The translations under genes were made by a program, and so were the position numbers. Below are positions 4,449 through 61,314 of a DNA stretch of 64,000 nucleotides, one piece after another; position 1 is the stretch's first letter; each line of letters starts with the position of its first letter. The stretch comes from an uncultured delta proteobacterium (GTDB taxonomy: Bacteria; Desulfobacterota; Desulfobaccia; Desulfobaccales; 0-14-0-80-60-11): contig CAVTZS010000015.1 of the NCBI GenBank assembly GCA_963739295.1, forward strand, positions 13,574-77,573, written 5' to 3'. The notes under the pieces are model-generated. The model did not search any database. It worked only from the letters and a program-made list of their open reading frames with translations, and was not told the origin of the DNA.

Positions 4449-5210
4449 TCATGGCCGGCCCCGGTCAAGGTGGCTCTGGGCCTCCAGGCAGCACCCCAGA
4501 GCGCCGTTGAACTGGGGGTGGGGGGGCACCGTGACCTGAAAATCGCTCCGTTCCGAAAGGAGCTGCACCACCGCCCGGTTTTGGGCCACTCCGCCCACAA
4601 AGACCAGGGTGCGGCAGGGGTAGCGGCGCACCATGGTCAGGGCCCGGCGAGCCACCGAGGCGTTGACCCCCGCGGCGATGCGGGCCGGGTCCACCCCTTC
4701 CAGGAGATGGCCGATGAGTTCACTTTCGCCAAAGATGGCACAGGTCTGGGAAATGTCCACCGGGTCCTGGGAGGCCGTGGCAAACTCAGTGAGGGGCATT
4801 TTTAAAAACCGCGCCATATTTTCCAGATAGCGGCCGGTGCCCGCGGCGCACCGGTCGTTGGTGAGAAAGTCAAACACCCGACCGTCTTTGATGTACAGCA
4901 CCTTGGTGTCCTGACCCCCCACTTCCAGGAGAATAAAATGGTTAAGCCCGGTCTGCTGGCGAGCCCCCAGGAAATGGGCCCGGATCTCGGTGATAGTGGG
5001 AAAATAATCCTGGAGCAGCTTCTTGCCATAGCCGGTGACTACCAGGGCCTCCGGTGGGGCCAGGCCCAGGCGCTCCCAATCAACGGCCAGGCCGCCATCT
5101 ATTCGGGCCAGATAATCCCGATAAAAAATAAGACTGTCCAACTGGCGCCGGCCAAAACCTCCCTCCCCCTTGGCATAAACCAGCTTGACAAACCGGCTGC
5201 CAAAGTCCAA
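4449..5210 (-). CDS. BadF/BadG/BcrA/BcrD-type ATPase (acyl-CoA dehydratase activase-like); start uncertain
   Basis: LGLDFGSRFVKLV, EVGGQDTKV, NDRCAAGTGRYLE and VFVGGVAQN. The first ~77 aa of the track ORF (4449..5450) are a translation of a repeat copy, so a TTG/CTG start near 5210-5216 is assumed. Confidence 0.7.
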   Translation of the reverse strand: MDFGSRFVKLVYAKGEGGFGRRQLDSLIFYRDYLARIDGGLAVDWERLGLAPPEALVVTGYGKKLLQDYFPTITEIRAHFLGARQQTGLNHFILLEVGGQDTKVLYIKDGRVFDFLTNDRCAAGTGRYLENMARFLKMPLTEFATASQDPVDISQTCAIFGESELIGHLLEGVDPARIAAGVNASVARRALTMVRRYPCRTLVFVGGVAQNRAVVQLLSERSDFQVTVPPHPQFNGALGCCLEAQSHLDRGRP

Positions 5211-19558: not shown

Positions 19559-21280
19559 TCATCCTTCCAATTCCCTCAACGCCTTACTTGCGAAGTCCAG
19601 GGAGGAGTCCAGGTCCAGGGCTTGTCTCAGCACGAACGCGGCTTCTTTCTGATGTCCCAGTCTGGCCAGGTTGATCCCTAAGTTGGCGTAGTCGATGGCG
19701 GAGCCGGGGTCCAGCTCGATGACCTTTTCGAAGCAGGCGACGGCCTGCTGATGGTCCTCAAGCTTGAAAAAGCAAAAGCCCAGCAGGTGATGGGCCTCTT
19801 TCAATCCGGGGTCCAGGGCCTGGGCTTGCTCCAAGGCGGCGACCGCGGCGGGGTAGTCTCCCAAGTCTTTGTGGCAGGCGCCCAGATGCACAAAGATGCT
19901 GGGAATCTCATGGGCAGGAGGGTTAAGCTCCAGGGATCTCTGAAAATGTTGCAGGGCCAGATCAGGCCGACCCAGATGCTCCAGGGTCAGGCCCAGGAAG
20001 AAGTGCACGTCGAAGCGCTCCGGAAACCTGAGGTTCAGCTTATTAAGGGCCGCCAGGGCATCCTGGGGCGGGGCGTAGAGGGCAGCCACCTTGGCCAGGT
20101 GAAAAATCACATTGGTATTGCGGGTGCGATCCAGAAAGTGGGTGCCGGGGATCAGGACATAGACCGCGGGGATGCCGATGGCCGGATGGGTCACCTCCAC
20201 GGCCAGCACCTCCAGATGGAGACGGGAAAGAGCCGAAAGGCAGTTACCAATCTCTTCCTTGAGGTTCGGGTGCGACAGGTTGGGCAGGGAATTTAGGGGT
20301 TTCAGGGGCCCAGGCTCCATCAAATAGGCGGCTTCCTCCAGGGTGCGATATTTCGGCAGGGTAGGGCGGTAGCTGGTGCGGCGGTGGAAATCCCCCGCCA
20401 GTTGGGCCACTTCGGTCAGGGCCCGGATCAGGGATTTGGTGGGATCAGTGGTGGTGCCGGCCGTGAAGACAATTTCGCTCTCCTGAGGAAAGGTAGCCGG
20501 ATCATAGGCCAGGGCCGCCACCGTGGGGATGCCGGTATCCAGGGAGAAGTCCCGGAGATAGACCTTAATGCCGTTTCTCTGGAATTTGGCCAGCAATTCC
20601 CGGGCCGCGGCATCCGTCACCGAGTCGGGGTCCAGACCCGGGGTGGAGCGGCGCTCATGGCTGATGACCGACCCCACATGGCGCTCCACCACCTCACACA
20701 AGGCTTGCAGCACCGCTTCTTCGGGACAGTTTCCCGCGGCCGGGCCGTTATATTCCTCGATCAGGTAAAACCAGTGGAGAGGGAGATAAACCGGCGCGCC
20801 GGTGGTCAAATTGGTGGCCGGGACAAAATAGAGCGGCCAGTCCTCATAGAGCCCGGCCGCGGCCAGGGCTTCTTGGGAATAATCGAAGAGGGAACGGGCC
20901 AGATAAGAAAAGCCTAAAACCTGGCCTGGGAGCTCCCGGGCCCGCGTGTAAACCAGCGGGCCTTCTTGAAGATAGGAAAAAAAGCTGAAGCGCTCCACCA
21001 GCTCCATCAGGGCGCTGGCCTCGGACTGGACCGGGGTGGCGCCTTTGCCCATCTGCTTCTGGGTGGGCACCACCCGCCGGGCGTCCACCCCCAGGAGGCT
21101 GATATAAATCGGGATATCCAGACGGCCGGAGTCGATGCGCATGGTTTCCTGCAAGATCTTAAGATCCAGCCGGGCCAGGCGCTCCCTCACCCGGGCGATG
21201 GTCTCCTGCGGGGTTAACAGCTTATCCTGGTCGTAGGTGTAGCCTTTAAAGGCGTCGGCAAGTTGCAGGGTTGGCAGCAT
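19559..21280 (-). CDS. YcaO-domain protein with C-terminal TPR repeats
   Basis: GKGATPVQSEASALMELVERFS is a YcaO ATP-binding-region pattern. The C-terminal ~170 aa show TPR-like A/L/G/Y periodicity (HFFLGLTLEHLGRPDLALQHFQRSLELNP...). Confidence 0.8.
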   Translation of the reverse strand: MLPTLQLADAFKGYTYDQDKLLTPQETIARVRERLARLDLKILQETMRIDSGRLDIPIYISLLGVDARRVVPTQKQMGKGATPVQSEASALMELVERFSFFSYLQEGPLVYTRARELPGQVLGFSYLARSLFDYSQEALAAAGLYEDWPLYFVPATNLTTGAPVYLPLHWFYLIEEYNGPAAGNCPEEAVLQALCEVVERHVGSVISHERRSTPGLDPDSVTDAAARELLAKFQRNGIKVYLRDFSLDTGIPTVAALAYDPATFPQESEIVFTAGTTTDPTKSLIRALTEVAQLAGDFHRRTSYRPTLPKYRTLEEAAYLMEPGPLKPLNSLPNLSHPNLKEEIGNCLSALSRLHLEVLAVEVTHPAIGIPAVYVLIPGTHFLDRTRNTNVIFHLAKVAALYAPPQDALAALNKLNLRFPERFDVHFFLGLTLEHLGRPDLALQHFQRSLELNPPAHEIPSIFVHLGACHKDLGDYPAAVAALEQAQALDPGLKEAHHLLGFCFFKLEDHQQAVACFEKVIELDPGSAIDYANLGINLARLGHQKEAAFVLRQALDLDSSLDFASKALRELEG

Positions 21281-24101: not shown

Positions 24102-24137
24102 AAAAAAAACCGGATTGCCTCAACTCAGGCAACCCGG
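24102..24137 (-). terminator. riboswitch expression-platform terminator
   Basis: Minus strand CCGGGUUGCCU-gaguug-AGGCAAUCCGG (11 bp) followed by U8. The 5' arm overlaps the 3' strand of the aptamer. Confidence 0.7.
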
Positions 24138-24205
24138 CTATCTCCATCATTTAGAGACCCGTGGCTTTCCGTCCCCACCTTGCGATGGGTTTGGCCTTTT
24201 CTGAC
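24128..24205 (-). promoter_or_regulatory. c-di-GMP-I (GEMM-I) riboswitch aptamer
   Basis: Minus strand reads AAAGGCCAAACCCAUCGCAAGGUGGGGACGGAAAGCCACGGGUCUCUAAAUGAUGGAGAUAGCCGGGUUGCC. It tracks the recalled Vc2 pattern GGCAAACC-(GNRA hairpin)-GGGACGCAAAGCC-(hairpin)-AGCGGGGUUACC. Confidence 0.65.
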
Positions 24206-47215: not shown

Positions 47216-47761
47216 GTGGAGCGAACCGGGCCGAATTTTCGGGTGGCCCTGATTCTGGGCGGCACCAGGAGCGGCAAAAGCCGCTATGGCCTGTCCCTGG
47301 CGGCCCAGTTTCCCCTGCCCCGGCTCTTTGTGGCCACCGCCGAGGCCGGGGATGCCGAGATGGCGGCCCGCATTGAACAGCACCGCAAAGAGCGGGGGCC
47401 GGATTGGGACACCCGGGAAGCTCCTCTAGCGCTGCCCCAGGCCCTGGCCGAAGCTCAGGACAAGTACGGGGTCATCCTGGTGGACTGCCTCACCCTGTGG
47501 TTGACTAACCTGATGCTCCGGGAAAATGCCCCGGAAGGAGAACTGGAGGCCAACTGCCAGAGCCTGCTCAGGGTGGTGGAGCACGCCACCACGCCCCTAA
47601 TCCTGATCAGCAATGAGGTGGGATGGGGGATCGTGCCGGAGAACCCCCTGGCCCGCCAGTTCCGGGACCGGGCCGGGATGCTCCACCAACGCCTGGCCCA
47701 GGTGGCCGACCTGGTGACCCTAATGGTAGCCGGATTGCCTTTGACCATAAAGGGCGGGTGA
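47216..47761 (+). CDS. cobU: adenosylcobinamide kinase / adenosylcobinamide-phosphate guanylyltransferase
   Basis: LILGGTRSGKSRYG P-loop, ILVDCLTLWLTN, LISNEVGWGIVPENPLARQFRD. GTG start. Confidence 0.85.
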   Translation: MERTGPNFRVALILGGTRSGKSRYGLSLAAQFPLPRLFVATAEAGDAEMAARIEQHRKERGPDWDTREAPLALPQALAEAQDKYGVILVDCLTLWLTNLMLRENAPEGELEANCQSLLRVVEHATTPLILISNEVGWGIVPENPLARQFRDRAGMLHQRLAQVADLVTLMVAGLPLTIKGG

Positions 47762-51453: not shown

Positions 51454-52564
51454 ATGTTACCTGAAATAGCCGAAATCCGGGCCAAATTGAAAGAATTTAA
51501 AGATAAGCTCACGCTCCTCCGAGGGCATCTTTGATCTGGAGGACAAGCAGGCCAGATTAGCAGAGTTAGAAAAGCAACTGGCCACGCCGGGACTGTGGGA
51601 GGATGCCACCCAGGCCGCCGACCTCTTAAGAGAGCGCAGCGCCCTGACCCAGGTGGTGGAAGATTGCCAGCAGCACTTTAAGCAGGTGGAGGACCTGGAA
51701 GTCCTGCTGGACCTAGCCCTGGAAGAGGACGATCAAGGGGCCCTGAAGGATGTGGCCCAGGACCTGGCCGTCCTGGAGGAAACCTATCAGGGTTGGGAGC
51801 TCAAGCTCCTTTTTACCGAAGAAGACCAGAAGAACGCCATCATTACCATCCATGCCGGCGCCGGCGGCACTGAGGCCCAGGATTGGGCCGAAATCTTGCT
51901 GCGCATGTATCTGCGCTATGCGGAACGCAAGGCCTTCAAGACCGAGACCCTGGACCTGTTGGTCGGGGACGAAGCCGGGATCAAGAGCGTCACCTTTACG
52001 GCCTCGGGAGACCACGCCTACGGCTATTTGAAGAGTGAAAGCGGCATCCACCGCCTGGTGCGCATCTCTCCTTTCGATGCCAGTGGCCGCCGCCATACCT
52101 CCTTTGCCGCGGTTCAGGTGCTGCCGGAGGTGGATGAAAAAATTGAGATCGACCTCAACGAGAAGGACTTGCGGATCGATACCTTCCGGGCCAGCGGCCC
52201 CGGCGGGCAACACGTTAATAAGACCAGCTCCGCGGTGCGCATCACCCACCTGCCCAGCGGCATTGTCGTCACCTCCCAAACCGAAAGATCGCAGCACCGC
52301 AATAAAGAGCTGGCCATGAAGGTCTTGCGGGCCCGCCTCTACAGTCTGGAGCAGCGCAAGCGGGAAGAAAAGAAACAGGAGCTGCAAGAGTCTCAGAAAG
52401 AAATCGCCTGGGGCAGCCAGATCCGTTCCTATACCCTTCAGCCCTACCGCCTGGTGAAGGACCACCGCACCAAGCACGAGGAAGGCAACGTGGATGCGGT
52501 CCTGGACGGCGACCTGGACCCCTTCGTGGAAGCCTATTTGATGCAGCCCGGGGAGGCTAAGTAG
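51454..52564 (+). CDS. prfB: peptide chain release factor 2, with programmed +1 frameshift (51454..51531 joined to 51533..52564)
   Basis: AAGGAG SD. MLPEIAEIRAKLKEFKDKLTLLRGHL, then in-frame TGA at 51532. The +1 frame continues DLEDKQARLAELEKQL... with SPF and GGQ motifs (SPFDASGRRHTSF, GPGGQHVNKTSSAVRITH). Confidence 0.9.
51522..51535 (+). promoter_or_regulatory. prfB autoregulatory +1 frameshift site
   Basis: GAGGG (SD-like), CAT, then CTT TGA T. Same layout as the classical AGGGGG-UAU-CUU-UGA-C site. Confidence 0.85.
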
Positions 52565-52645: not shown

Positions 52646-54376
52646 ATGAAAGTTTCCAGGTCGGCGCTTTTGGGGTTGGGGGCTCTGGTCGTGCTGGTGG
52701 CCGCCCTCTGGTACACCAGTCGTGCGGTTACCCCCAAGGAAGCCACCCGGGAGGACGTGCTGACCGAAGCCAGAGATGGCGGCTACCGGATCATCGACAC
52801 GGAAGAACTTTGGGAATATTGCCGCCAAGGCGCCCAAGACCTGCTGCTGGTGGACGTCCGGCCCGAGTGGGACTACCAGAAAGGTCATATCCAAGGGGCG
52901 GTTAACTTTCCTCTGGAACCCACCGCCTGGTCCAGATGGTGGAAAAAAGAGGCCCTGGAAAATTTTCTGGGACCTGATCGAAACCGGATAATCGTCTTTT
53001 ACTGAGCCGGGCTGGCCTGAGTCCGGAGCGACTCGGCGGCCCGGGTGGCCGTTAGAATCGGTTATAAGAACGTCTGCCGTGACCCCAGGGGCTTCCCGGA
53101 GTGGCAGTCCCGGGGTTTGCCGGTGGAACGCCCCTCGCTTGAACTCGCCGCCATCTCCCTGGACCCCAAGATTCCCGGGCCCTTATATGGCTGGGCCATG
53201 ATTTGGACGCTGCTGATGATCTTTGTCGGGGGCGTGGCTCTCAATCTGACCCCGTGCGTCTATCCCCTCCTGCCCATCACCGTCTCCTGTTTCGGGGGTC
53301 GCAGCGGCCAGACCCGGGGCCGGCTGGTGATCCACGGGCTGCTCTATGTAGGGGGCCTGTGTCTCACCAACTCCCTCCTGGGGGTGGCGGCGGCCCTGAC
53401 CGGGGGCCTTATGGGGGCCATGTTGCAAAGCCCCTGGGTGCTGGTGGCCGTGGCCGCGATCCTGGTCTTTTTTGCCACCAGCATGTTTGGCTTCTGGGAA
53501 CTGCGTCTGCCCGGGGGCCTGACCCGGGCCGCGGCCAAATCTTGCGCCGGTTACTTCGGCAGCCTGTTCATGGGATTGACCCTGGGGGTGGTGGCCGCGC
53601 CCTGCGTCGGTCCCTTTGTGCTGGGCCTGCTTACCTGGGTGGCCAGCCTGGGCTCCCCGCTCCTGGGTTTTATGGTGTTCTTCACTCTGAGCCTGGGCCT
53701 GGGTCTGCCTCTCTTCTTCCTGGCGGTCTTTTCCGGGAGCTTGGAAAAGCTTCCCCGTTCGGGGGAATGGCTTATCTGGGTGCGCCAGCTCATGGGCTGG
53801 GTCCTCCTCGGCATGGCCGCCTATTTTATCAGGCCGGTTCTTTTCGATCCTTGGGGAGTAATCCTCCTGGCGGCCATCGCCCTGGGAGCGGGGGTGCACC
53901 TGGGCTGGCTCGACCATACCATGGCCCATTTCCGGGCTTTTCCGTGGCTGAAGGCTGGCGCGGCGCTGGCGGGCCTCCTCCTGGCCCTCCTCTTCCTGGC
54001 AACCTGGGCGCTGCGCAGCCCCGGAATGGTCTGGCAGCCTTATTCCGAGGAGCTTCTGGCGGAAGCCAGGTTGCAGGGAAAACCGGTAATTATCGACTTT
54101 TATGCTATCTGGTGCGCCCCGTGCCAGGAAATGGAAAAGACTACCTTTCGTAATCCAGATATTGTTAAAATCGCGGCCCGGAATTTTATTACCATCAGGG
54201 TAGATCTCACCCGGTCCGGGAACCCCCTCAACCAGCGGTTGCTGAGGCAGTATGGGATCAAAGGGGTGCCCACGGTGATATTTTTGGATAGCCAGGGCCA
54301 GGAGCGCCCTGACCTGCGCCAGGTGGGTTACCTGCCGGCCGAGCAATTCCGTAACCGGATGGCCCAGATAAAATGA
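52646..54376 (+). CDS. rhodanese - DsbD/CcdA-type transmembrane core - thioredoxin fusion; two in-frame TGA codons (53003, 53018) read as putative selenocysteine
   Basis: One frame throughout (53045-52646 = 399). It reads ...RNRIIVFY-TGA-AGLA-TGA-VRSDSAARVAVRIGYKNV...FPEWQSRGLPVE. The first ORF stops at the rhodanese active-site loop and the second begins mid-domain. Downstream: LNLTPCVYP, AAPCVGP (DsbD core), FYAIWCAPCQ (Trx). Confidence 0.65.
53014..53041 (+). promoter_or_regulatory. SECIS-like hairpin after TGA 53003
   Basis: GGCC-UGAGUC-cggagc-GACUCG-(gc)-GGCC. The stem includes the second TGA. Confidence 0.4.
53035..53053 (+). promoter_or_regulatory. SECIS-like hairpin after TGA 53018
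   Basis: GGCGGCC-cgggu-GGCCGUU, starting 15 nt after the TGA. Confidence 0.45.
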
Positions 54377-54439
54377 ATGGAAGACAAAATGGGTCGCAGA
54401 CCCTTCGGCCCATATAGGAAAGGAAATTTAGGAGGTAAC

Positions 54440-54757
54440 ATGCTGAAGGTCAGGTGCTTCCTTAACGAACCCAACGGCAAACCCTGAAAGCATTTTCTCA
54501 AGATGGTGCCCAGGTTGGGCCAAAAATACCCCCTTGAGACGGAATTCATCTCCAAGCCTAAGGCCGAATACCAGACCGAGGAATACTTTGAGCTGGACCT
54601 GCCCGTGGCCCCCGCGGTGATGGTGGGCGAAGAGATCGTGGTGGAAGGCTCGGACGTGACGGAAGACACCCTGGAGGCGAAAATTCGCCTACACCTGGGC
54701 CTGCCTCCCCTGGAGCAGGCAAAAAAGGGAATTCTGAGCCGCTGGCTCGGGAAGTGA
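54440..54757 (+). CDS. small thioredoxin-fold-like protein with in-frame TGA (54485), putative selenoprotein
   Basis: Strong SD TAGGAGGT 6 nt before ATG 54440. MLKVRCFLNEPNGKP-TGA-KHFLKMVPRLGQKYP... is in frame with track ORF 54503..54757, which itself has no SD. PAVMVGEEIVVEGSDVTEDTLEAKI resembles the C-terminal half of small Trx/Grx-like proteins. Confidence 0.5.
54506..54521 (+). promoter_or_regulatory. SECIS-like hairpin after TGA 54485
   Basis: G-(u bulge)-GCCCA-ggu-UGGGC-C. The loop lies 26-28 nt after the TGA. Confidence 0.45.
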
Positions 54758-54766
54758 GGAGATTGT

Positions 54767-54808
54767 TTGGGGGAGGGCAGGGAGCTCAGCTCCCTGGCCC
54801 TCCCCCCA
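54767..54808. repeat. intergenic repeat, solo hp1 hairpin
   Basis: TTGGGGGAGGGCAGGGAGCTCAGCTCCCTGGCCCTCCCCCCA. Confidence 0.85.
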
Positions 54809-54864
54809 ACATTCCTTTAACCATCGCTTAAACCCGCTAGGACCCAGCGGGGTTATTTGGTGGG

Positions 54865-55707
54865 TCAGGTGGAGCCGGGTTTGCAGAAGCTTTCTTTTCC
54901 AGGTTCCACCAGGATTTGGGCCTGGGCCTCGATGGATGCTTGCGCCTTGGCATCCACCAGTTTTTCCCCGTAGAACAGAGCGCCTTCCGTATAGGCCGAG
55001 CTTTTGAATCCCGTATAGCCGGCCAAACCCGCCCGGTGGAAGCCAACCTGGAGCATGAGGGCCAGGAAATCCTTTCCTGGTATGGCCCCGCCGATTCACT
55101 GATACCAGTTTTCCGCCTTGCCGGCTATCTCAGGCGGCAGGTCTTGCACCAGAACCATGTCGGCCAGCATCAGGCGACCCCCGGCCTTCAGCACTCGCTG
55201 CGCTTCCCTTAAGGCCTTTTCTTTATCCAAAGTCAGGTTGAAGACCCCGTTGGAGATAATCACGTCAAATTCGTTATCCGGGAAGGGCAGAGATTCGGCT
55301 TCGCCCACCTGGAAGGTGACGTTTTCTAAACCCAGCAGGGCGAGGTTGGCCCTGGCCTTCTCGATCATCTCCGGCGTCACGTCCAGGCCCACCACCCGGC
55401 CCCGGGGGCCCACCAGCTTGGCGGCCACCAGGGTGTCAAAGCCATTCCCGCAGCCAATATCCAGGACGGCCTCTCCCGCATAGAGCGGGCCCAGGCTGAA
55501 GGGATTTCCCACCCCGCAGAAGGAGTCCACGATGGGTTTAGGAAAAACCCGGATAATTTCCGGAGGATATTTTTGCTGCCTGAGCCCCTCTTCCCCGATG
55601 GGGTACTGGAAGCAGCAGGCGGTGCCCGAGGCCGCCACCCGGGAATATTTTTCCCGGATGCCATCCCGGATGGTGACCCTTTCTTGATCCGTCAGGTGTT
55701 GCGTCAT
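54865..55707 (-). CDS. ArsM-like SAM-dependent methyltransferase with in-frame TGA (55098..55096), putative selenoprotein
   Basis: VLDIGCGNGFD (motif I), N-terminal CC pair, FCGVGNP, then ...AENWYQ-TGA-IGGAIPGKDFLALMLQVGF. This aligns with the ArsM W.GC(V/I)AGA...GF segment. The two track ORFs (55096..55707 and 54865..55056) are in one frame. The SNC(V/I)xNL cysteine is Gly here (ISNGVFNL). Confidence 0.7.
55062..55080 (-). promoter_or_regulatory. SECIS-like hairpin after TGA 55098..55096
   Basis: Minus strand CCAGGAAA-gga-UUUCCUGG, starting 16 nt after the TGA. Confidence 0.45.
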
Positions 55708-55746
55708 GGCGCCTCTCTTAAGGATGCTTACTAACTCAAGTTTATA

Positions 55747-56319
55747 TTATTTCTTTGCCTCTTTCAGCTTTTTGCCCGCGCTCCAGGCCTTCCCGGCGTG
55801 CTCTCCCACGGTCCAGTAGTTATTGTCCGGCATGGTCAGGAGCAAGGGATTCATTTTGCGGATGTCAAGCTTGCCGTCCGTGAGGTAGCGTTCCTCGGTG
55901 TAGCTGGAGACGATTTCGCCCACGAACAGGTGATTGCCGGGGAACTCCACGATGTCCACCAGCTGACATTCCAGGCACAGGGGGCACTCCTTGATCATCG
56001 GCGCGGTTTTAAGTTCTCCGTAAAAGACCTGAAAGAGGCTGGATTTATCGGCTTTCCGGCCCGAGACCAGCCCGCAATAGTCAGTCTGGGCTACCAGGTC
56101 GGCGCTGGGAAAGTTCACGCTGAAGGTGCGGTTCTCCCGGATGCCGATGGGGGTGAAATGGCCCTGGTTGAGAGACACGGCCAGAAGGGGAGGGTTGAGG
56201 TTGACCCGGGTCAGCCAGGCCACGGCCAGGAAATTGGGCCGCCCGGCCACGTTGGCCCCCACCAGGGTCACGGGCATGGGATAGACAAAGACGTTGGTGC
56301 CAAGATTAATCTTGTTCAT
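55747..56319 (-). CDS. flavin reductase-like (FMN-binding split-barrel) protein
   Basis: MNKINLGTNVFVYPMPVTLVGANVAGRPNFLAVAW. ATGA overlap with the upstream paralogue. Confidence 0.75.
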   Translation of the reverse strand: MNKINLGTNVFVYPMPVTLVGANVAGRPNFLAVAWLTRVNLNPPLLAVSLNQGHFTPIGIRENRTFSVNFPSADLVAQTDYCGLVSGRKADKSSLFQVFYGELKTAPMIKECPLCLECQLVDIVEFPGNHLFVGEIVSSYTEERYLTDGKLDIRKMNPLLLTMPDNNYWTVGEHAGKAWSAGKKLKEAKK

Positions 56320-56885
56320 CAGAGATCCTTTCCTATGGAGAAGGCCAGGCCCAGGTATTTCCCGATACCGTGATAGGTGCGGATTTCCGGGCCAAAGATA
56401 ATGGGTCTCACCTTTTCGATGTCGGGGAAGCCGGTCTCTCCCAGAACGGTTGCCTCGGCCTTGACGTCCAGGATTTTCCCGATGAATTGGGTATGCAGGC
56501 CGATCTCCAGGGTATGAATCACCTGGCATTCCAAAATCAGCGGGAACTCCTTAATGAACGGCGCGTCCACCAGACTGCTGCTCACCGGCGTGAGCCGGGA
56601 GACGGCGAATTTGTTCACTTCCTCTCCCGTGACCATCCCGAAGTAATCCGCGGCCTTGACGTGCTCTTCCGAAGGTATGTTGATGGTAAAGGCCTTCCGG
56701 GCCACGATGTTGCCGTAGGAGTAAGTGGCTTTCCTAAGAGAGACGGCTACGCAGGGCGGGCTGGAGCAGCAGATGGAGGCCCAGGCCGCGGTCATCACGT
56801 TGGGTTTGCCGTCTGGCCCATAGGTCCCCACCACCCAGACCGGGGTGGGGAAGGCCAGGGTCCGGGGGCCTAAAGATTTCTTCAT
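56319..56885 (-). CDS. flavin reductase-like (FMN-binding split-barrel) protein
   Basis: The Met at 56885 is preceded by AGGAGG. MKKSLGPRTLAFPTPVWVVGTYGPDGKPNVMTAAW. Confidence 0.75.
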   Translation of the reverse strand: MKKSLGPRTLAFPTPVWVVGTYGPDGKPNVMTAAWASICCSSPPCVAVSLRKATYSYGNIVARKAFTINIPSEEHVKAADYFGMVTGEEVNKFAVSRLTPVSSSLVDAPFIKEFPLILECQVIHTLEIGLHTQFIGKILDVKAEATVLGETGFPDIEKVRPIIFGPEIRTYHGIGKYLGLAFSIGKDL

Positions 56886-57028
56886 GGCGACACCTCCTGT
56901 TAAAGAAATTAAGACTTCGGGGCAAAAAAACAAGAAATTAAAGAGAGCGGCCGGCATGAATGGGTTAGCAGCCAGGGCTTAATCCTGAAAGTTATAATAA
57001 TAAGCCTTCATTTTTTTCTTGCAATATA

Positions 57029-57044
57029 ATGAGCATATGCTCAT
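57029..57044. promoter_or_regulatory. perfect 16-bp palindrome, candidate operator upstream of the DUF134 gene
   Basis: ATGAGCATATGCTCAT overlaps TATAAT (57025-57030) and ends 8 nt before ATG 57053. Confidence 0.35.
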
Positions 57045-57052
57045 AATAAGTT

Positions 57053-57532
57053 ATGTCCCGACCCAAATGTTGCCGCCGGGTGGCTGGCCTCCCGGATTTC
57101 CTCCTTTTTAAACCCGCAGGGCTACCTGCCGCGGAGCTGGAGGAAATCGTCCTGACCATGGACGAATTCGAGGCCCTCCGCCTGGCTGATCTTTTGGGGC
57201 TTTACCAGGAACAGGCCGCCGCCGGTATGCATATCTCCCGGCAGACCTTCGGGCGCATCCTGGAGGGTGCCCACCACAAGGTGGCCCGGGCCCTGGTGGA
57301 GGGAAAAATCCTACGCATTGACGGAGGTAAAGTGGAGATGCCCACAATCAGAAAATTTCAATGCTTCGACTGCCAGCATATCTGGACCGTCCCTTACGGA
57401 ACGGGAAGGCCGGGCGATTGTCCCGCGTGCCATAGAGGCAATATCTGCCGCGTGGAGGCAGAGCGCGGACCTGGGGGTCCGGGTGCAGGTGGTCCTAGCC
57501 GCCGGTGCCGGCGCGGCCAGATGCAGAAATAA
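57053..57532 (+). CDS. DUF134 (UPF0251) putative DNA-binding protein with C-terminal Cys-rich extension
   Basis: MSRPKCCRRV...FKPAG, DEFEALRLADLLGLYQEQAAAGMHISRQTFGRIL, then CFDCQ...CPAC. Confidence 0.75.
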   Translation: MSRPKCCRRVAGLPDFLLFKPAGLPAAELEEIVLTMDEFEALRLADLLGLYQEQAAAGMHISRQTFGRILEGAHHKVARALVEGKILRIDGGKVEMPTIRKFQCFDCQHIWTVPYGTGRPGDCPACHRGNICRVEAERGPGGPGAGGPSRRCRRGQMQK

Positions 57533-57572
57533 CTTTTCGAAAATTTCAATTTTTCTTCAAGAGGAGAGGTCT

Positions 57573-57959
57573 ATGAAGATTGCGGTAGCTTCGGATGATG
57601 GTATCGTTCTCGCCCCGCATTTCGGCCGCAGCCGATACTTCCTGGTGTTTGACGTCCTGGAAGGCCATATCTCCGGCCCGGAGACCCGCGCCAACGGATT
57701 CACTGCGTTTGCCCACGGGGAATGCGGCTCCCAGTCACACGGCCACCACGCCCATAGTCATGACGCCCTGGTGTCGGCCCTGCATGATTGCCAGGTGGTT
57801 ATGGCCGGGGGCATGGGTAGACGGGCGGCCCTTGATCTGCAAGACCACGGCATTCAGCCACTGGTGGTGCCTTTCGCCGGCCCTGCAGTGGAGGCCGTCA
57901 AGGCGTACCTGTCCGGGTCCATCAAATCCCTGGATACCTGGTGCTGCGGCCATCAGTAA
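57573..57959 (+). CDS. NifB/NifX-type dinitrogenase Fe-Mo cofactor-binding domain protein
   Basis: GAGGAGAGG SD. MKIAVASDDGIVLAPHFGRSRYFLVFDV, VVMAGGMGRRAALDLQDHGI. Confidence 0.75.
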   Translation: MKIAVASDDGIVLAPHFGRSRYFLVFDVLEGHISGPETRANGFTAFAHGECGSQSHGHHAHSHDALVSALHDCQVVMAGGMGRRAALDLQDHGIQPLVVPFAGPAVEAVKAYLSGSIKSLDTWCCGHQ

Positions 57960-57977
57960 CACGAATTAGGTGTCTTT

Positions 57978-58005
57978 GCTGAAAGCTGAAAGCTGACCGC
58001 TGAAA
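57978..58005. repeat. heptamer tandem array GCTGAAA x2, GCTGACC, GCTGAAA
   Basis: Starts 19 nt after the stop at 57959. Confidence 0.75.
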
Positions 58006-58092
58006 GCCATTTTCATAGAAAAGCCTGCGGTTCTAGAAATTATCGATATGAACCAGGCTTGGTATTAAGCAATTTCTGAAGGGGAAAGCACG

Positions 58093-58135
58093 TAGGGGCG
58101 GTTCGCGCACCGCCCCTGCATCCCCGACCCTCCAC
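58093..58135. repeat. nested-palindrome unit of the intergenic repeat, nearly alone
   Basis: GTAGGGGCGGTTCGCGCACCGCCCCTGC followed by ATCCCCGACCCTCCAC. Confidence 0.7.
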
Positions 58136-58169
58136 TTCTCTGAGAATTTCTACGTTTCTTCCTTCGGGC

Positions 58170-58382
58170 TCACCAGGCTGGAAACTTCTTAAGCTTTTCC
58201 TCTTCTTCGGGCGTGAGATGGCGTTTCCCCCCCAGGGAATCAAAGTTTGCACAGCTATGCTCGTCCCGGGCGAATTGCGTTGCACTCCCATCCCAGGGTT
58301 CTTGGTGAAGACATTTTCCCATTCGTAGCGAGGCCGGGTCCGGCGCAAAATGCTTGCAATCCACACAGCGAATCAGGTCCAT
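58170..58382 (-). CDS. hypothetical small Cys-containing protein
   Basis: 70 aa. CVDCKHF...GKC...SC. Confidence 0.35.
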   Translation of the reverse strand: MDLIRCVDCKHFAPDPASLRMGKCLHQEPWDGSATQFARDEHSCANFDSLGGKRHLTPEEEEKLKKFPAW

Positions 58383-58647
58383 AGCGCCTCCTTATTAATT
58401 GAAGGGTGTTAGCGGGACCAAGCTATCTGGTCCCTTTTCCCACCTGCGAGCCCAAGGTGGGGTGGGGTTATTTTAAACGTCAGGCGTAATCAAGTTTAAT
58501 ATTAGGTCGCAGGGCGAAAAACGCCACCCGGTTTCTGGGTAATCTCCCCCGCCTCCTGTCGCGGTCCATGGGTGAAGCGTCACCGTGAACCGCGCCTCAA
58601 CCTGAGCCGGCAGCAGGGGCCCAGGCCGGCATCCCAGAGGTAAGGCT

Positions 58648-59301
58648 TTAGAGAATCGTCTCTTCCCCTTTTTGGGCGTTGATGGCCACGAAACCCCCTT
58701 CCCCAAAACCAGGTTTAACCGGCTCCAGGGCCGTGATCTCCTTAAGGGGCTTAAAGATGGTCTGGCAAACTTGGAAGTTCTTAAAAGCCAGCCCTTCGAG
58801 CCATCCTATCACCTGCTGCGCCGGGTAAAAGCGGGCCTGGGCATAAAATCTGCTTTCCTGTTTGCTGGCTTCATATTGCCGGCCCAGGGGGCTGTCTCCA
58901 TCAATCATGCCGATGAGTATCCGCCCTTGCGGCTTCAGGACTCGCGCTGCTTCCGCCAGGGCCCGGAAGGGGTCTGAAAGAAAACAGAGGACGGTTACCA
59001 TCAGGACCAGGTCGAAGGCCGCGGCGACAAAGGGCAATGATTCCGCCCTGGCCTGGCAGATTTTTACTCCCCGCTTCCGGGCGATTTCTGCCATCGCTTG
59101 GGCTGGCTCTACCCCAAGGTCGATTCCCAGAGGAATGGCAAACCTTCCGGTGCCCACTCCGACCTCCAGGCTTCTCCCTCCTGGAATAAGGAATCTTTTT
59201 AGCGCCAGGATTTCCGACTCATAGGCGATCTGGTTCCGATCAAACCAGGCATCATATTCCTGAGCTGATTTCTCAAATATTTGGATAACTTTATCAATCA
59301 T
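58648..59301 (-). CDS. class I SAM-dependent methyltransferase
   Basis: SLEVGVGTGRF (motif I), FDLVLMVTVLCF, LKPQGRILIG. The Met at 59301 is preferred. Confidence 0.7.
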   Translation of the reverse strand: MIDKVIQIFEKSAQEYDAWFDRNQIAYESEILALKRFLIPGGRSLEVGVGTGRFAIPLGIDLGVEPAQAMAEIARKRGVKICQARAESLPFVAAAFDLVLMVTVLCFLSDPFRALAEAARVLKPQGRILIGMIDGDSPLGRQYEASKQESRFYAQARFYPAQQVIGWLEGLAFKNFQVCQTIFKPLKEITALEPVKPGFGEGGFVAINAQKGEETIL

Positions 59302-59440
59302 AGGGAAAAGAAACCAAGGATGCCGGAGGAGGCAGATGGCTGGCAAAATGTTTCGATGACAAATGCCGGTAATAAAAGGAGCCTGGCCAACTTAAGATTC
59401 GCCAGGCTCTTAAGGATTACCGCAGGGGACCTAATTTAGC

Positions 59441-60799
59441 TTATTCCTCTTCCTCGAATTCGATCCCGTCCCGTTCGAACTGGGCGTCACGCTCGGTGTG
59501 GGCCGCCTCGATTTCCTCCTCGCTCCAGGGCTCATAGTCCAGCACTTTGGACACCAGTTCCCAAAGGTATAGGGTCTCTTCGTAGTTGCCCATGTCATGG
59601 ACCTTGGGCAGCCCCTTCATGATCTGGTCTCGACAGTTGTGGCAGGGGGCCACGACAATCTCCGCGCCGGTGTCCTTGATCTGGTCTGCCTTCACCTTGC
59701 CGTAGGCCAGGCGCTCCTGGTCGTAGGGCATGGCCCAGGCGCCGCCCCCGGCGCCGCAACAGAAGTTGTTCAGGGGGTCGTCGCACATCTCGCGGTACAG
59801 GCTCTCGTCAATGCACTGTTTTGAAATCCAGCGGCACATCTCTCCGTTGTTAGGTTCATCCTTATAAAGCATATAGGACTTGCGCACGTAGTTGCAAGGG
59901 TCGTGCACCGTGAAGGTGTGGTGGATTTTAGTCTTGTCCAGCTTGATTCGGCCGGATTTGATGTATTCTATTAGCAGATCCATGATGCTCACTACCTTGA
60001 ATTCGTCGAAAACTTCCGGAAACCAATTGTTGAACCCGACCCGGGTTGCAAAGTAGGCGTGCCCTCATTCGGGGTACAAGATGGTTTTCGCCTTTACTCG
60101 TCGGGCGTTCTCGATGATCCGACTCACCTGTTCCTTCCAGGACGGGTCGTCACCGGAGAACAGCCCCCAGTTAACCCCTTCCCAGTTAGTCGAGGACACG
60201 GTCCAGTCTTCCTTGGCGGCATAGAAGATGCGCCACCAGAACTTCATGTCGTCGGGCTCGCCGAAGGGCTCCTTGGAGTTAATGGTGACGATGATGTTGG
60301 CCCCTTCCTTGTCCACCGGCACATAGAAGCCGGGGCAGGGCTGCTCCTCGTCTTCCTCCATCTCCTTGCCCAACTCTGCCAGGAGGAACAGGAAATCATC
60401 CCTGGGAATGCCGAGGTTGTTGCCCCTCTGCAGATTCATCATGGTGCCCTTATGGATGGGTCCGGGGACCTTGTCCCGCTCCCGCAACGTGCGGCAGGCC
60501 CGGAAGGTCTTCATTAATTTAATCCCCATGGGGCACTGATACTCGCAGCGGCCGCACAGGGTGCAGACCCAGGGCCACTTGGAGTCAATGACCTCCTGCT
60601 CCATACCGAAGACTATGGCCCGGATGGCCTTGCGGGAATCCCAGCCGGTCTCCGAGCCCGGCATGGTGACCAGGCCGGTGGCGGGGCAGCCTCCGGCGCA
60701 GGTGCCACAGGTATAACAGCGATCCGCCAACTCGGGGGCAATCCCGATTTTGCGGTGCTTCCTGTCTACCCTGACCTCTTGTATGACATCCTCTGCCAT
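59441..60799 (-). CDS. HdrD/GlpC-like Fe-S oxidoreductase (2x[4Fe-4S] plus CCG domain) with in-frame TGA (60067..60065), putative selenoprotein
   Basis: CYTCGTCAGGCP and CTLCGRCEYQCP, ...KTILYPE-TGA-GHAYFATRV..., then HDPCNYVRK and FCCGAGGG. The two track ORFs (60065..60799 and 59441..59992) are in one frame (60064-59992 = 72). Confidence 0.7.
60030..60051 (-). promoter_or_regulatory. SECIS-like hairpin after TGA 60067..60065
   Basis: Minus strand UUG-(c bulge)-AACCCG-ggu-CGGGUU-CAA. The loop lies 24-26 nt after the TGA. Confidence 0.5.
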
Positions 60800-61314
60800 T
60801 TTTCCTCCAAGATATATTCTTTAAGGCTTAATAATTTTCTTCAGCTCAAGTTAGGGTGTCGGTATCCCGCTTGCTCCGCAGACCTGCGCCCCCTCCGGTT
60901 AAATCCAGCCCCGGTGATTATCAGAGTTACCAGGACAAATTTTGGATTTGTATCTAATTATATATATATAAAATTACCACCAAAAATAAAAGATTTTTAA
61001 TTAAGCCTTTTTGATTATAGGCCCCCCACCCCCCATGTCAAGCAGAAAATACCAATTTTCACAAACCGCTTTTGGCTTGGGCCAAGGCTCCCATTGACTC
61101 AGAGCAGAGTTGATTTTATCCCGAAGCCTGGGCCAAGGGCTGCTGAGGGCTAGAATCACCTTAGGTCGGGCACCCGATAATGGTAAATTATGATATCTTT
61201 TAGGTAACAGGTATTTAAAGGAACCTGGCAATCCTTATCTTGGGGTACGGTTGGCGGCCGTGCCCGGTGTCAAGAAGGAGCAAAGGGAAAGCCAGGTGAG
61301 GGTGATACGCCAAG

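What the first reader, a model, noticed from the sequence alone, without database searches (positions are those of the whole stretch)
52646..60799. Five in-frame TGA codons in four redox/methyltransferase genes within 8 kb: a putative selenoprotein-rich locus
In four genes the ORF track breaks at a TGA, yet the next ORF continues in the same frame and completes the same protein domain.
- Rhodanese-DsbD-Trx fusion: TGA at 53003 and 53018.
- Small Trx-fold protein: TGA at 54485.
- ArsM-like methyltransferase: TGA at 55098..55096, minus strand.
- HdrD/GlpC-like Fe-S protein: TGA at 60067..60065, minus strand.

Each TGA sits where the family carries a conserved or catalytic Cys. Each is followed by a GC-rich hairpin starting 13-21 nt downstream, with a G-rich apical loop (cggagc, cgggu, ggu, gga, ggu) centred about 19-28 nt after the TGA. 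That geometry is what bacterial SECIS elements show.

These are substitution-type signals, unlike the indel-type frame breaks elsewhere in the window. Neighbouring genes use TGA as an ordinary stop, so the genetic code is not reassigned. No selA, selB, selD or tRNA-Sec lies in this window.
Basis: partly seen in the sequence, partly recalled or inferred. Interest (0 to 1): 0.85.

Follow-up and report, generated by a model that had tools for sequence, protein, structure and literature searches.

The report
Cluster of four known selenoprotein genes

Summary
It lies at 54867..54865 (minus strand), four codons before the true TAA stop of the methyltransferase.

Three genes pass curated NCBIfam selenoprotein models:
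- rhodanese/DsbD fusion TsoB (U-x4-U)
- NEPxGxxU protein TsoC
- "methyltransferase/UXPK-star double selenoprotein"

The fourth carries the UGH motif and the Fe-S plus CCG architecture of the published "Fe-S oxidoreductase-like" selenoprotein family.

Comparative evidence is strong:
- Homologous loci from other samples keep TGA at the same columns.
- Cys-containing homologues exist for TsoC, the methyltransferase and the Fe-S protein.
- Each TGA is followed 13-20 nt later by a hairpin with a G-containing loop.
- Four hairpins show a compensatory change or are rebuilt from different sequence.
- In tsoB, the lowest synonymous variation of the whole gene lies exactly over the hairpins.

TGA is also an ordinary stop in the window, so the code is not reassigned.

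It is a new member of a known kind: the "Tso" neighbourhood of Haft and Tolstoy (2025), here without tsoA. The Sec machinery of this genome could not be checked. Interest is modest.

The parts
52646..54376 (+). tsoB: a fusion of an N-terminal membrane anchor, a rhodanese domain, a DsbD transmembrane core and a thioredoxin domain. It has two Sec codons and ends at an ordinary TGA stop (54374-54376).
   Evidence: NF045694 seleno_TsoB scores 945.5 bits against a cut-off of 805. Pfam finds Rhodanese, DsbD_TM and Thioredoxin domains. Translation.
53003..53005 (+). Sec codon U1 of TsoB, at the column of the rhodanese active-site Cys.
   Evidence: It aligns with the FYC Cys of solved rhodaneses. It is TGA in all 11 sequences of alignment A3, 10 of them distinct.
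53018..53020 (+). Sec codon U2 of TsoB, in a two-residue insertion of the active-site loop (U-A-G-L-A-U-V-R-S).
   Evidence: It is TGA in all 11 sequences of alignment A3, 10 of them distinct.
53019..53034 (+). Hairpin 1, the proposed SECIS for U1: GAGUC-CGGAGC-GACUC. It starts 13 nt after U1 and its 5' arm contains the last two bases of U2.
   Evidence: 94% of cells are paired in 10 distinct homologues, but without a double compensatory change.
53035..53053 (+). Hairpin 2, the proposed SECIS for U2: GGCGGCC-CGGGU-GGCCGUU. It starts 14 nt after U2.
   Evidence: Energy is -10 kcal/mol. L003 has a compensatory G-C to U-A change at two synonymous sites. The lowest synonymous-site entropy of the whole gene lies at codons U2 to U2+10, at 0.53 against a gene mean of 1.16.
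54440..54757 (+). tsoC: a small NEPxGxxU selenoprotein of 105 residues. AGGAGG lies 4 nt before the ATG, and the gene ends at an ordinary TGA stop.
   Evidence: NF045708 seleno_TsoC scores 143.6 bits against a cut-off of 45. Sequence.
54485..54487 (+). Sec codon of TsoC.
   Evidence: It is TGA in seven loci. Cys forms P0249, P0251 and P0305 exist.
54508..54520 (+). TsoC hairpin GCCCA-GGU-UGGGC, 20 nt after the TGA.
   Evidence: The CCCAGGUUGGG core is invariant in seven loci. The outermost of the five stem pairs changes from G-C to A-U in L014 and L019. Energy is only -6.2 to -7.0 kcal/mol.
54853..55707 (-). ArsM-like SAM methyltransferase with two Sec codons. The true stop is TAA at 54855..54853.
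   Evidence: NF047649 scores 496 bits, and 503 bits covering profile positions 1-283 of 283 once the tail CPTK is added; the cut-off is 460. Translation.
55096..55098 (-). Sec codon U1 of the methyltransferase (NWYQ-U-IGGA).
   Evidence: Cys in the full-length homologues P0124 and P0125. All but three of the best 120 homologues are 199-207 aa, that is, they end at about this column.
55062..55080 (-). Hairpin CCAGGAAA-GGA-UUUCCUGG, 15 nt after U1.
   Evidence: Energy is -9.1 kcal/mol. L035 and L038 have an A-U to G-C compensatory change with the GGA loop kept.
54865..54867 (-). It is followed by P-T-K and then TAA.
   Evidence: L035 and L038 read ...CAPGGA-U-APK-stop in frame.
54833..54851 (-). 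Hairpin CCCGCUGG-GUC-CUAGCGGG, 13 nt after U2 and 1 nt after the stop codon, so it lies in the 3' untranslated region.
   Evidence: Energy is -12.2 kcal/mol. L035 and L038 have hairpins of different sequence, with loops GUU and GGU, at the same distance.
59441..60799 (-). HdrD/DsrK/HmcF-like iron-sulfur protein (4Fe-4S dicluster plus CCG domain) with one Sec codon in the motif PE-U-GH.
   Evidence: Pfam finds Fer4 and CCG domains. The best NCBIfam hit, HmcF, scores 187 bits against a cut-off of 750, so no dedicated model applies. Translation.
60065..60067 (-). Sec codon of the iron-sulfur protein.
   Evidence: All 16 homologues that span the column have Cys there, and P0054 stops just before it. 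L033 has TGA there with in-frame continuation.
60033..60047 (-). Hairpin AACCCG-GGU-CGGGUU, 17 nt after the TGA. It extends to 60030-60051 with one bulge.
   Evidence: Energy is -6.2 kcal/mol for the core and -7.8 extended. L033 forms GACCA-GGCU-UGGUC from different codons at the same place.
54756..54819 (.). Long GC-rich inverted repeat between the convergent tsoC and methyltransferase genes. It looks like a terminator that could act in both directions.
   Evidence: Sequence. The only Rfam matches are chance miRNA-like hairpin hits.

Best explanation
**What it is.** The four genes are true selenoprotein genes. Six UGA codons are read as selenocysteine.

**How decoding works.** This is the standard bacterial mechanism and is inferred, not tested here. 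A short hairpin 13-20 nt downstream of each UGA binds SelB carrying Sec-tRNA(Sec). SelB delivers Sec to the ribosome in competition with release factor 2.

**tsoB.** Two UGAs lie 15 nt apart and are followed by two hairpins with the same 15-nt phasing. The second UGA is part of the first hairpin's 5' arm. The hairpins would therefore be used one after the other as the ribosome advances.

**Methyltransferase.** The second UGA lies four codons before the stop, and its hairpin lies just past the stop codon.

**Function, by domain logic only.**
- TsoB looks like a DsbD-type transmembrane reductase. It would pass electrons from the cytoplasm through two membrane Cys and a WCAPC thioredoxin domain to an extracytoplasmic rhodanese domain. 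The active-site loop of that domain holds two Sec.
- The ArsM-like enzyme carries Sec at a column where its full-length homologues have Cys. From memory, that column is one of the arsenite-binding Cys of ArsM.
- Relatives have ArsR, DedA and flavin reductase genes nearby. The most likely role is therefore redox handling and methylation of a metalloid or chalcogen.
- The iron-sulfur protein appears to be an unrelated neighbour with its own promoter-like site.
For: **Family membership.** Curated selenoprotein models score above cut-off. All families are listed as known selenoproteins in PMC13188914.

**TGA conserved at the same columns.**
- TsoB U1 and U2 in all 11 aligned loci.
- TsoC in 7 loci.
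- Methyltransferase U1 in L034, L035 and L038, and U2 in L035 and L038.
- The iron-sulfur protein in L033.

**Cys/Sec pairs.**

**Truncated database homologues.**
- All but three of the best 120 methyltransferase homologues end at about the U column.
- A cluster of 33 iron-sulfur fragments includes many that end at about their U column.

**Hairpins.**
- 6 of 6 sites against a background of 8.8-9.1%.
- Compensatory changes in TsoB hairpin 2, the TsoC hairpin and the methyltransferase U1 hairpin.
- Different sequence but the same structure for methyltransferase U2 and the iron-sulfur protein.

**Synonymous sites.** The trough of the whole tsoB gene lies at U2 to U2+10.

**Other support.**
- TGA is also a normal stop.
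- The gene list for L035 and L038 carries 578-residue products that run through both TGAs.
- TsoB has an N-terminal anchor followed by roughly eight hydrophobic segments in a crude hydropathy scan (my grouping of overlapping peaks). This would place the rhodanese and thioredoxin domains on the same side of the membrane.
Against: - No selA, selB, selD or tRNA-Sec was found in the window. The rest of the genome could not be retrieved.
- No Rfam family matched any hairpin.
- The TsoC hairpin is weaker than the published energy threshold.
- TsoB hairpin 1 loses a pair in 3 of 10 distinct homologues and shows no double compensatory change.
- TsoB U2 has no Cys counterpart.
- There is no experimental evidence for any of these families.
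- All functional statements rest on domain homology and neighbourhood.
Confidence: 0.9

Rival explanations
1. The TGAs are nonsense mutations or assembly errors, and the genes are pseudogenes or are truly split.
For: Automatic gene callers split these genes. Examples are the 84-aa P0241, the 203-aa P0121 and the 248-aa P0054.
Against: - The same columns carry TGA in many independent samples and lineages, at 49-71% G+C.
- The frames continue with conserved domains.
- The hairpins co-vary.
- Synonymous sites are constrained exactly downstream of the TGAs.
Confidence: 0.02
2. UGA is reassigned in this organism, to Trp or Gly as in genetic codes 4 or 25.
For: Some ENA gene calls of TsoC homologues show W at the column.
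Against: - TGA ends many clear genes in the window, including tsoB, tsoC, cobU and cobT.
- The recoded columns align with Cys, not with Trp or Gly.
- The W calls are on contigs of about 0.4-3 kb and fit a wrong translation table.
Confidence: 0.01
3. Sec decoding is real, but in tsoB a single SECIS (hairpin 2) serves both UGAs, and hairpin 1 is a by-product of the conserved V-R-S-D-S coding sequence.
For: - The loop of hairpin 2 lies 36 nt from U1 and 21 nt from U2. Both are inside the published 16-37 nt range.
- Hairpin 2 is far better conserved and has the only double compensatory change.
- The 5-bp core of hairpin 1 is only -4.8 kcal/mol.
Against: - Hairpin 1 keeps 94% of its cells paired, with a G in loop position 2 in all homologues.
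- Its distance to U1 (13 nt) mirrors that of hairpin 2 to U2 (14 nt).
- 36 nt is at the extreme edge of the allowed range.
Confidence: 0.3

Closest known systems
Tso ('three selenoprotein operon') system: TsoA, TsoB and TsoC (NF045695, NF045694, NF045708). Haft and Tolstoy 2025, mSystems 10:e0141724, as summarised in PMC13188914.
   Same: - TsoB and TsoC score above the curated cut-offs.
- The motifs U-x4-U and NEPxGxxU match exactly.
- Other, unrelated selenoprotein genes lie next to them, as the review describes.
   Different: - tsoA is absent from all 64 kb. It is adjacent in L001, L012, L013, L015, L017, L020 and L038, and its 3' end lies at the cut edge of L002/L016.
- Here prfB abuts tsoB directly. 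Relatives have DUF3786 there, and L038 also has arsR and tsoA.
- I could not read the primary paper.
[quoted passage not shown]
   Same: - The match runs end to end above the cut-off.
- Sec lies in the UxxG site.
- A second Sec lies four residues before the stop, preceded by C-x-P-G-x-x.
   Different: The tail reads U-P-T-K-stop instead of U-A-P-K-stop as in L035 and L038.
Fe-S oxidoreductase-like (GlpC) selenoprotein with the UGH motif, listed in PMC13188914 (its reference 12).
   Same: The UGH motif, and the 4Fe-4S dicluster plus CCG cysteine-rich domain.
   Different: - The review describes it in a frhA-frhD-hdrA-glpC operon. Here it lies beside a SAM methyltransferase and an aldehyde dehydrogenase-like gene.
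- The closest homologue, P0001 (71% identity), has Cys.
- No curated model was available to test orthology.
DsbD/ScsB-type transmembrane thiol-disulfide reductases.
   Same: DsbD_TM core with two conserved membrane Cys, and a C-terminal thioredoxin domain with WCAPC.
   Different: - The N-terminal immunoglobulin-like domain (from memory of DsbD) is replaced by a rhodanese domain with two Sec.
- The DsbD model scores 249.8 bits, below its cut-off of 330.
Bacterial SECIS elements: the E. coli fdhF type and the consensus model of Zhang and Gladyshev, as quoted in PMC13188914.
   Same: Stem-loops directly downstream of UGA, a G in the first two loop positions, and 18-25 nt from the UGA to the loop.
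   Different: - In tsoB there are two phased hairpins for two UGAs 15 nt apart.
- In the methyltransferase one hairpin lies beyond the stop codon.
- No sequence similarity to any Rfam family.

Membership tests
TsoB (NF045694) | Score at or above the curated whole-protein cut-off. | tested here: met
   945.5 bits against 805, covering profile positions 5-572 of 572.
TsoB (NF045694) | U-x4-U motif in a rhodanese domain fused to a DsbD core and a thioredoxin domain. | tested here: met
   FY-U-AGLA-U-VRS. Pfam finds Rhodanese, DsbD_TM and Thioredoxin domains.
TsoC (NF045708) | Score above the cut-off, and the NEPxGxxU motif. | tested here: met
   143.6 bits against 45. The motif reads NEPNGKPU.
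Tso three-selenoprotein operon | tsoA (LULAxC), tsoB and tsoC together. | tested here: not met
   tsoB and tsoC are adjacent. There is no LULAxC motif in any frame. tblastn with TsoA from L015 and L020 finds nothing at E up to 10; the L015 TsoA is verified, scoring 208.8 bits against a cut-off of 170 on NF045695.
[quoted passage not shown] | Score above the cut-off, with the match running to the end of the profile. | tested here: met
   503 bits against 460, covering 1-283 of 283 with the four-residue tail.
[quoted passage not shown] | C-terminal U-x-P-K followed by a stop. | tested here: inconclusive
   The window has U-P-T-K-stop. L035 and L038 have U-A-P-K-stop. The U, the K, the stop and the upstream C-x-P-G are kept, but the Pro is shifted.
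Fe-S oxidoreductase-like (GlpC) selenoprotein | Sec in a UGH motif within a 4Fe-4S plus CCG protein. | tested here: met
   The motif reads PE-U-GHAY. Pfam finds Fer4 and CCG domains. The Cys/Sec column is shown.
Fe-S oxidoreductase-like (GlpC) selenoprotein | Membership of PTHR43551, or orthology to WP_174406253.1. | not testable with these tools
   Neither the PANTHER model nor that sequence was available.
Bacterial SECIS consensus model | Loop of 3-9 nt, stem of at least 4 bp, a G in the first two loop positions, and 16-37 nt from the UGA to the loop. | tested here: met
   All six sites meet these. My counts of the distance to the loop are 18, 21, 25, 23, 21 and 23 nt.
Bacterial SECIS consensus model | Folding energy of -7.5 kcal/mol or lower. 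| tested here: inconclusive
   Five sites pass: -8.3, -10.0, -9.1, -12.2 and -7.8 kcal/mol. TsoC reaches only -6.2 to -7.0.
Selenocysteine-decoding organism | selA, selB, selD and tRNA-Sec present in the genome. | not testable with these tools
   None is in the window. The source contig of 158,901 bp and the rest of the genome were not retrievable.
   Only sub-threshold hits were found: PDB thioredoxin at E 0.79 with the U on the second Cys of CGPC, Thioredoxin_3 at E 0.011 and Glutaredoxin at E 0.012.

The most novel reading that the evidence does not exclude
In tsoB, two Sec codons 15 nt apart are each served by their own mini-SECIS. The two hairpins are phased 15-16 nt apart, and the second UGA forms part of the first hairpin's stem. 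SelB would therefore have to be recruited twice within five codons, in a hand-over from one hairpin to the next. If this tandem arrangement has not been described, it would be a natural test case for how closely Sec insertions can be spaced. The same applies to the methyltransferase SECIS that lies wholly beyond the stop codon. A smaller point: the Tso cluster is modular. Relatives carry tsoB alone, tsoBC, or tsoA-B-C'-C. This argues that TsoB is the core component.
Probability: 0.3. Interest if true: 0.45.

Novelty: new member of a known kind. Interest (0 to 1): 0.3.

Why it matters
**Annotation.** Gene callers split or truncate all four genes. The identical public sequence appears as an unnamed 84-aa fragment (P0241). 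Reading the six UGAs as Sec restores full-length proteins.

**Biology.** None of these families has an experimentally known function. The locus joins three elements:
- a transmembrane reductase with a double-Sec rhodanese loop
- a small Sec protein
- an ArsM-like enzyme with two Sec

That pairing recurs in distant lineages: L001, L035 and L038 carry an ArsM-type selenoprotein near tsoB. This supports a shared role in metalloid or chalcogen chemistry and gives a compact target for genetics.

**Limits.** It does not open a long-standing question, and a selenoprotein specialist would not be surprised by it.

Tried and rejected
- **Rfam.** Scans at gathering and at permissive thresholds gave no SECIS family. 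The only hits were chance miRNA-like matches on the intergenic palindrome.
- **Other read-through candidates.** I scanned the whole window for TGAs with coding-like sequence on both sides. The extra candidates were adjacent genes in the same frame (cobU/cobT at 47759, and two genes at 4451) or antisense frames.
- **TsoA, TsoX and related motifs in the window.** None found.
- **Source genome.**
  - Exact-protein look-ups failed three times.
  - The genome-contig scan returned only relatives at 64% identity or less.
- **Possible SelD in L038.** An AIRS-domain gene near the cluster looked like a candidate, but it carries a ThiL-like GIGDDCA motif and has no counterpart in the window.
- **prfB next to tsoB as a functional link.** The adjacency occurs only in the close relatives L035-L038, so it looks like plain synteny.
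- **Primary paper.** Haft and Tolstoy 2025 is not held.

Full report
**Observation**

In each case the reading frame continues without a shift into sequence that completes the same protein.
- TsoB translates as ...IIVFY-U-AGLA-U-VRSDSAAR....
- TsoC translates as ...NEPNGKP-U-KHF....
- The methyltransferase translates as ...ENWYQ-U-IGGAIPGKDF....
- The iron-sulfur protein translates as ...ILYPE-U-GHAYFATR....

The apparent stop of the methyltransferase is again TGA (54867..54865, minus strand). It is followed by Pro-Thr-Lys and only then by TAA at 54855..54853.

**What the genes are**

NCBIfam holds models built specifically for selenoproteins, and three genes pass their curated cut-offs.

| Gene | Model | Score (bits) | Cut-off |
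|---|---|---|---|
| 54440-54757 | NEPxGxxU motif selenoprotein TsoC | 143.6 | 45 |
| 55707..54853 | methyltransferase/UXPK-star double selenoprotein | 496 | 460 |

- Adding the four residues after the sixth TGA raises the methyltransferase score to 503 bits and extends the match to the last profile position. That independently supports the sixth Sec codon.
- The fourth gene (60799..59441) has 4Fe-4S dicluster and CCG domains. It only weakly resembles HmcF, TmcB and DsrK.
- The same review lists TsoA, TsoB, TsoC and the UXPK-star methyltransferase. It credits them to Haft and Tolstoy 2025.
- It describes the Tso 'three selenoprotein operon' as lying beside other, unrelated selenoprotein genes. 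That is what is seen here. I could not obtain the primary paper.

**Comparative test of the TGA columns**

- *TsoB.* Scans of public genomes and metagenomes returned TsoB homologues at 59-66% identity. All 11 aligned sequences (10 distinct) have TGA at both positions. U1 aligns with the active-site Cys of solved rhodaneses. U2 lies in a two-residue insertion of that loop and has no Cys counterpart.
- *TsoC.* Seven loci have TGA at the column. A few database homologues carry a true Cys (P0249, P0251, P0305). Others show W, which fits TGA translated with the wrong table.
- *Methyltransferase.* All but three of the best 120 homologues are 199-207 residues long, so they end at about the U column. 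The two full-length ones have Cys there. Contigs for three truncated hits show the frame continuing through TGA. In L035 and L038 it ends ...CAPGGA-U-APK-stop.
- *Iron-sulfur protein.* All 16 homologues that span the column have Cys there. A cluster of 33 truncated sequences includes many that end at about it. Locus L033 shows TGA with in-frame continuation.

**Hairpins**

Each TGA is followed by a perfect stem whose core starts 13-20 nt downstream.

| Site | Stem (bp) | Loop |
|---|---|---|
| TsoB U1 | 5-7 | CGGAGC |
| TsoB U2 | 7 | CGGGU |
| TsoC | 5 | GGU |
| Methyltransferase U1 | 8 | GGA |
| Methyltransferase U2 | 8 | GUC |
| Iron-sulfur protein | 6 | GGU |

- With one fixed rule, 6 of 6 sites pass against 8.8% of all 1698 TGA triplets in the window. 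The rule was set after seeing the sites.
- With the published bacterial SECIS criteria, the background is 9.1%. Five sites have a hairpin that passes all four criteria. TsoC misses only the energy threshold.

Comparative support for the individual hairpins:
- TsoB hairpin 2 has a G-C to U-A double change at two synonymous sites in L003.
- The outermost of the five TsoC stem pairs changes from G-C to A-U in L014 and L019, with an invariant CCCAGGUUGGG core.
- The methyltransferase U1 hairpin changes A-U to G-C in L035 and L038.
- The hairpins after methyltransferase U2 and after the iron-sulfur TGA are rebuilt from different sequence at the same distance.
- Across 348 informative codons of tsoB, the twelve 11-codon windows with the lowest synonymous diversity all lie between two codons before U1 and 17 codons after U2. 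The minimum runs from U2 to U2+10, at 0.53 against a gene mean of 1.16. That is the signature of an RNA element laid over coding sequence.

**Alternatives**

- Pseudogenes or sequencing errors cannot explain TGA at the same columns in independent samples with 49-71% G+C, nor the co-varying hairpins.
- A reassigned code is excluded because TGA ends tsoB, tsoC, cobU, cobT and other clear genes.
- One detail remains open. The loop of TsoB hairpin 2 is 36 nt from U1 and 21 nt from U2, both inside the published range. One hairpin could in principle serve both codons.
- I favour two phased hairpins. Hairpin 1 keeps 94% of its pairs and sits 13 nt from U1, as hairpin 2 sits 14 nt from U2. Hairpin 1 has no double compensatory change, however, so I give the single-SECIS reading 0.3.

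**Context and likely function**

- The window shares synteny with two MAG contigs: L035 (GCA_027404775.1) and L038 (GCA_040757175.1). A database record names L038's copy of the methyltransferase as from a Thermodesulfobacteriota MAG. The shared order is cobU, cobT, cobS, prfB, tsoB, methyltransferase, flavin reductase, aldehyde dehydrogenase-like gene.
- The cluster's content varies. L038 has arsR, tsoA, tsoB, a tsoC paralogue and tsoC. L035 has tsoB alone. The window has tsoB and tsoC but no tsoA anywhere in 64 kb.
- In the distant locus L001, an ArsM/AhpD double selenoprotein and an ArsR gene lie between tsoB and tsoA-tsoC. The link between Tso genes and ArsM-type selenoproteins therefore recurs.
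- A crude hydropathy scan of TsoB shows an N-terminal anchor, then the rhodanese domain, roughly eight hydrophobic segments (my grouping of overlapping peaks), and then the thioredoxin domain. This is DsbD-like, with the two soluble domains on the same, presumably outer, side.
- My inference, which is untested: electrons pass from the cytoplasm through the membrane Cys pair and WCAPC to the U-x4-U loop. The system would handle a metalloid or chalcogen species that the ArsM-like enzyme methylates.
- The iron-sulfur gene lies in a segment absent from L035 and L038. A consensus TTGACA-16-TATAAT lies upstream of it. I regard it as an independent neighbour.

**What could not be done**

- The window contains only tRNA-His, and the ten large ORFs I tested include no sel gene.
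- The source contig of 158,901 bp is public but was not retrievable, so the Sec machinery of this genome remains unchecked.
- The thioredoxin-fold label for TsoC has only sub-threshold support.

**Verdict**

The locus consists of new members of selenoprotein families that are already catalogued. It has minor variations: no tsoA, a U-P-T-K tail, and phased twin hairpins. Interest is modest.

Noticed in passing
window 51454-52564 (+), frameshift site 51529-51534: prfB (release factor 2) carries the classic programmed +1 frameshift CUU UGA. After the shift the frame joins the long ORF. This is another in-frame TGA next to the locus, but it is not Sec. prfB ends 82 nt before tsoB, with no promoter-like site between them.
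   Followed up: partly
window 24124-24204 (-): A c-di-GMP-I-GGC riboswitch aptamer scores 75.8 bits against a gathering score of 59.
   Followed up: no
window 61041..61014 (-): A perfect sigma-70 consensus, TTGACA-16-TATAAT (12 of 12), lies about 215 nt upstream of the iron-sulfur selenoprotein gene.
   Followed up: no
window 54756-54819: A long GC-rich inverted repeat lies between the convergent tsoC and methyltransferase genes. It drew only chance miRNA-like Rfam hits and is probably a terminator that could act in both directions.
   Followed up: partly
homologues of window 59441-60799 (P0002 to P0120): Most full-length Cys homologues of the iron-sulfur protein carry an N-terminal HTH_17 (excisionase-type) DNA-binding domain. 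The window protein and P0001 lack it. This hints that many family members are redox-linked regulators.
   Followed up: no
L038 12329-15194 (-); L017 11753-12360: Some relatives have a second tsoC paralogue (NDPxGxxU) between tsoB and tsoC. L038 then carries seven Sec codons in tsoA, tsoB, tsoC', tsoC and the methyltransferase.
   Followed up: partly
L001 4515-5600 and 5896-6228: A Desulfobacteraceae MAG has an ArsM/AhpD-domain protein with two in-frame TGAs (KWAQ-U-EGGA and GGCNH-U-AQYC) and an ArsR-like gene between tsoB and tsoA-tsoC.
   Followed up: partly
P0244-P0248, P0250, P0253, P0279 (TsoC homologues): Public gene calls on ENA, JGI and NCBI contigs of about 0.4-3 kb show Trp at the Sec column. 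This is most likely TGA translated with genetic code 4, an annotation artefact that can hide selenoproteins.
   Followed up: no
window 19559-21280 (-): A YcaO-type kinase domain is fused to TPR repeats (TIGR00702 scores 118.8 bits against a cut-off of 75.65). It is unrelated to the finding.
   Followed up: no
window 55747-56957 (-), 57053-57959 (+), 58170-58382 (-), 58648-59346 (-): Several genes lie between the methyltransferase and the iron-sulfur gene:
- two flavin-reductase-like genes
- a DUF134-type protein
- a NifX/NifB-like protein
- a 70-residue Cys-rich ORF with no family match
- a second SAM methyltransferase, which recurs next to tso loci in L002, L015, L035 and L038
   Followed up: partly
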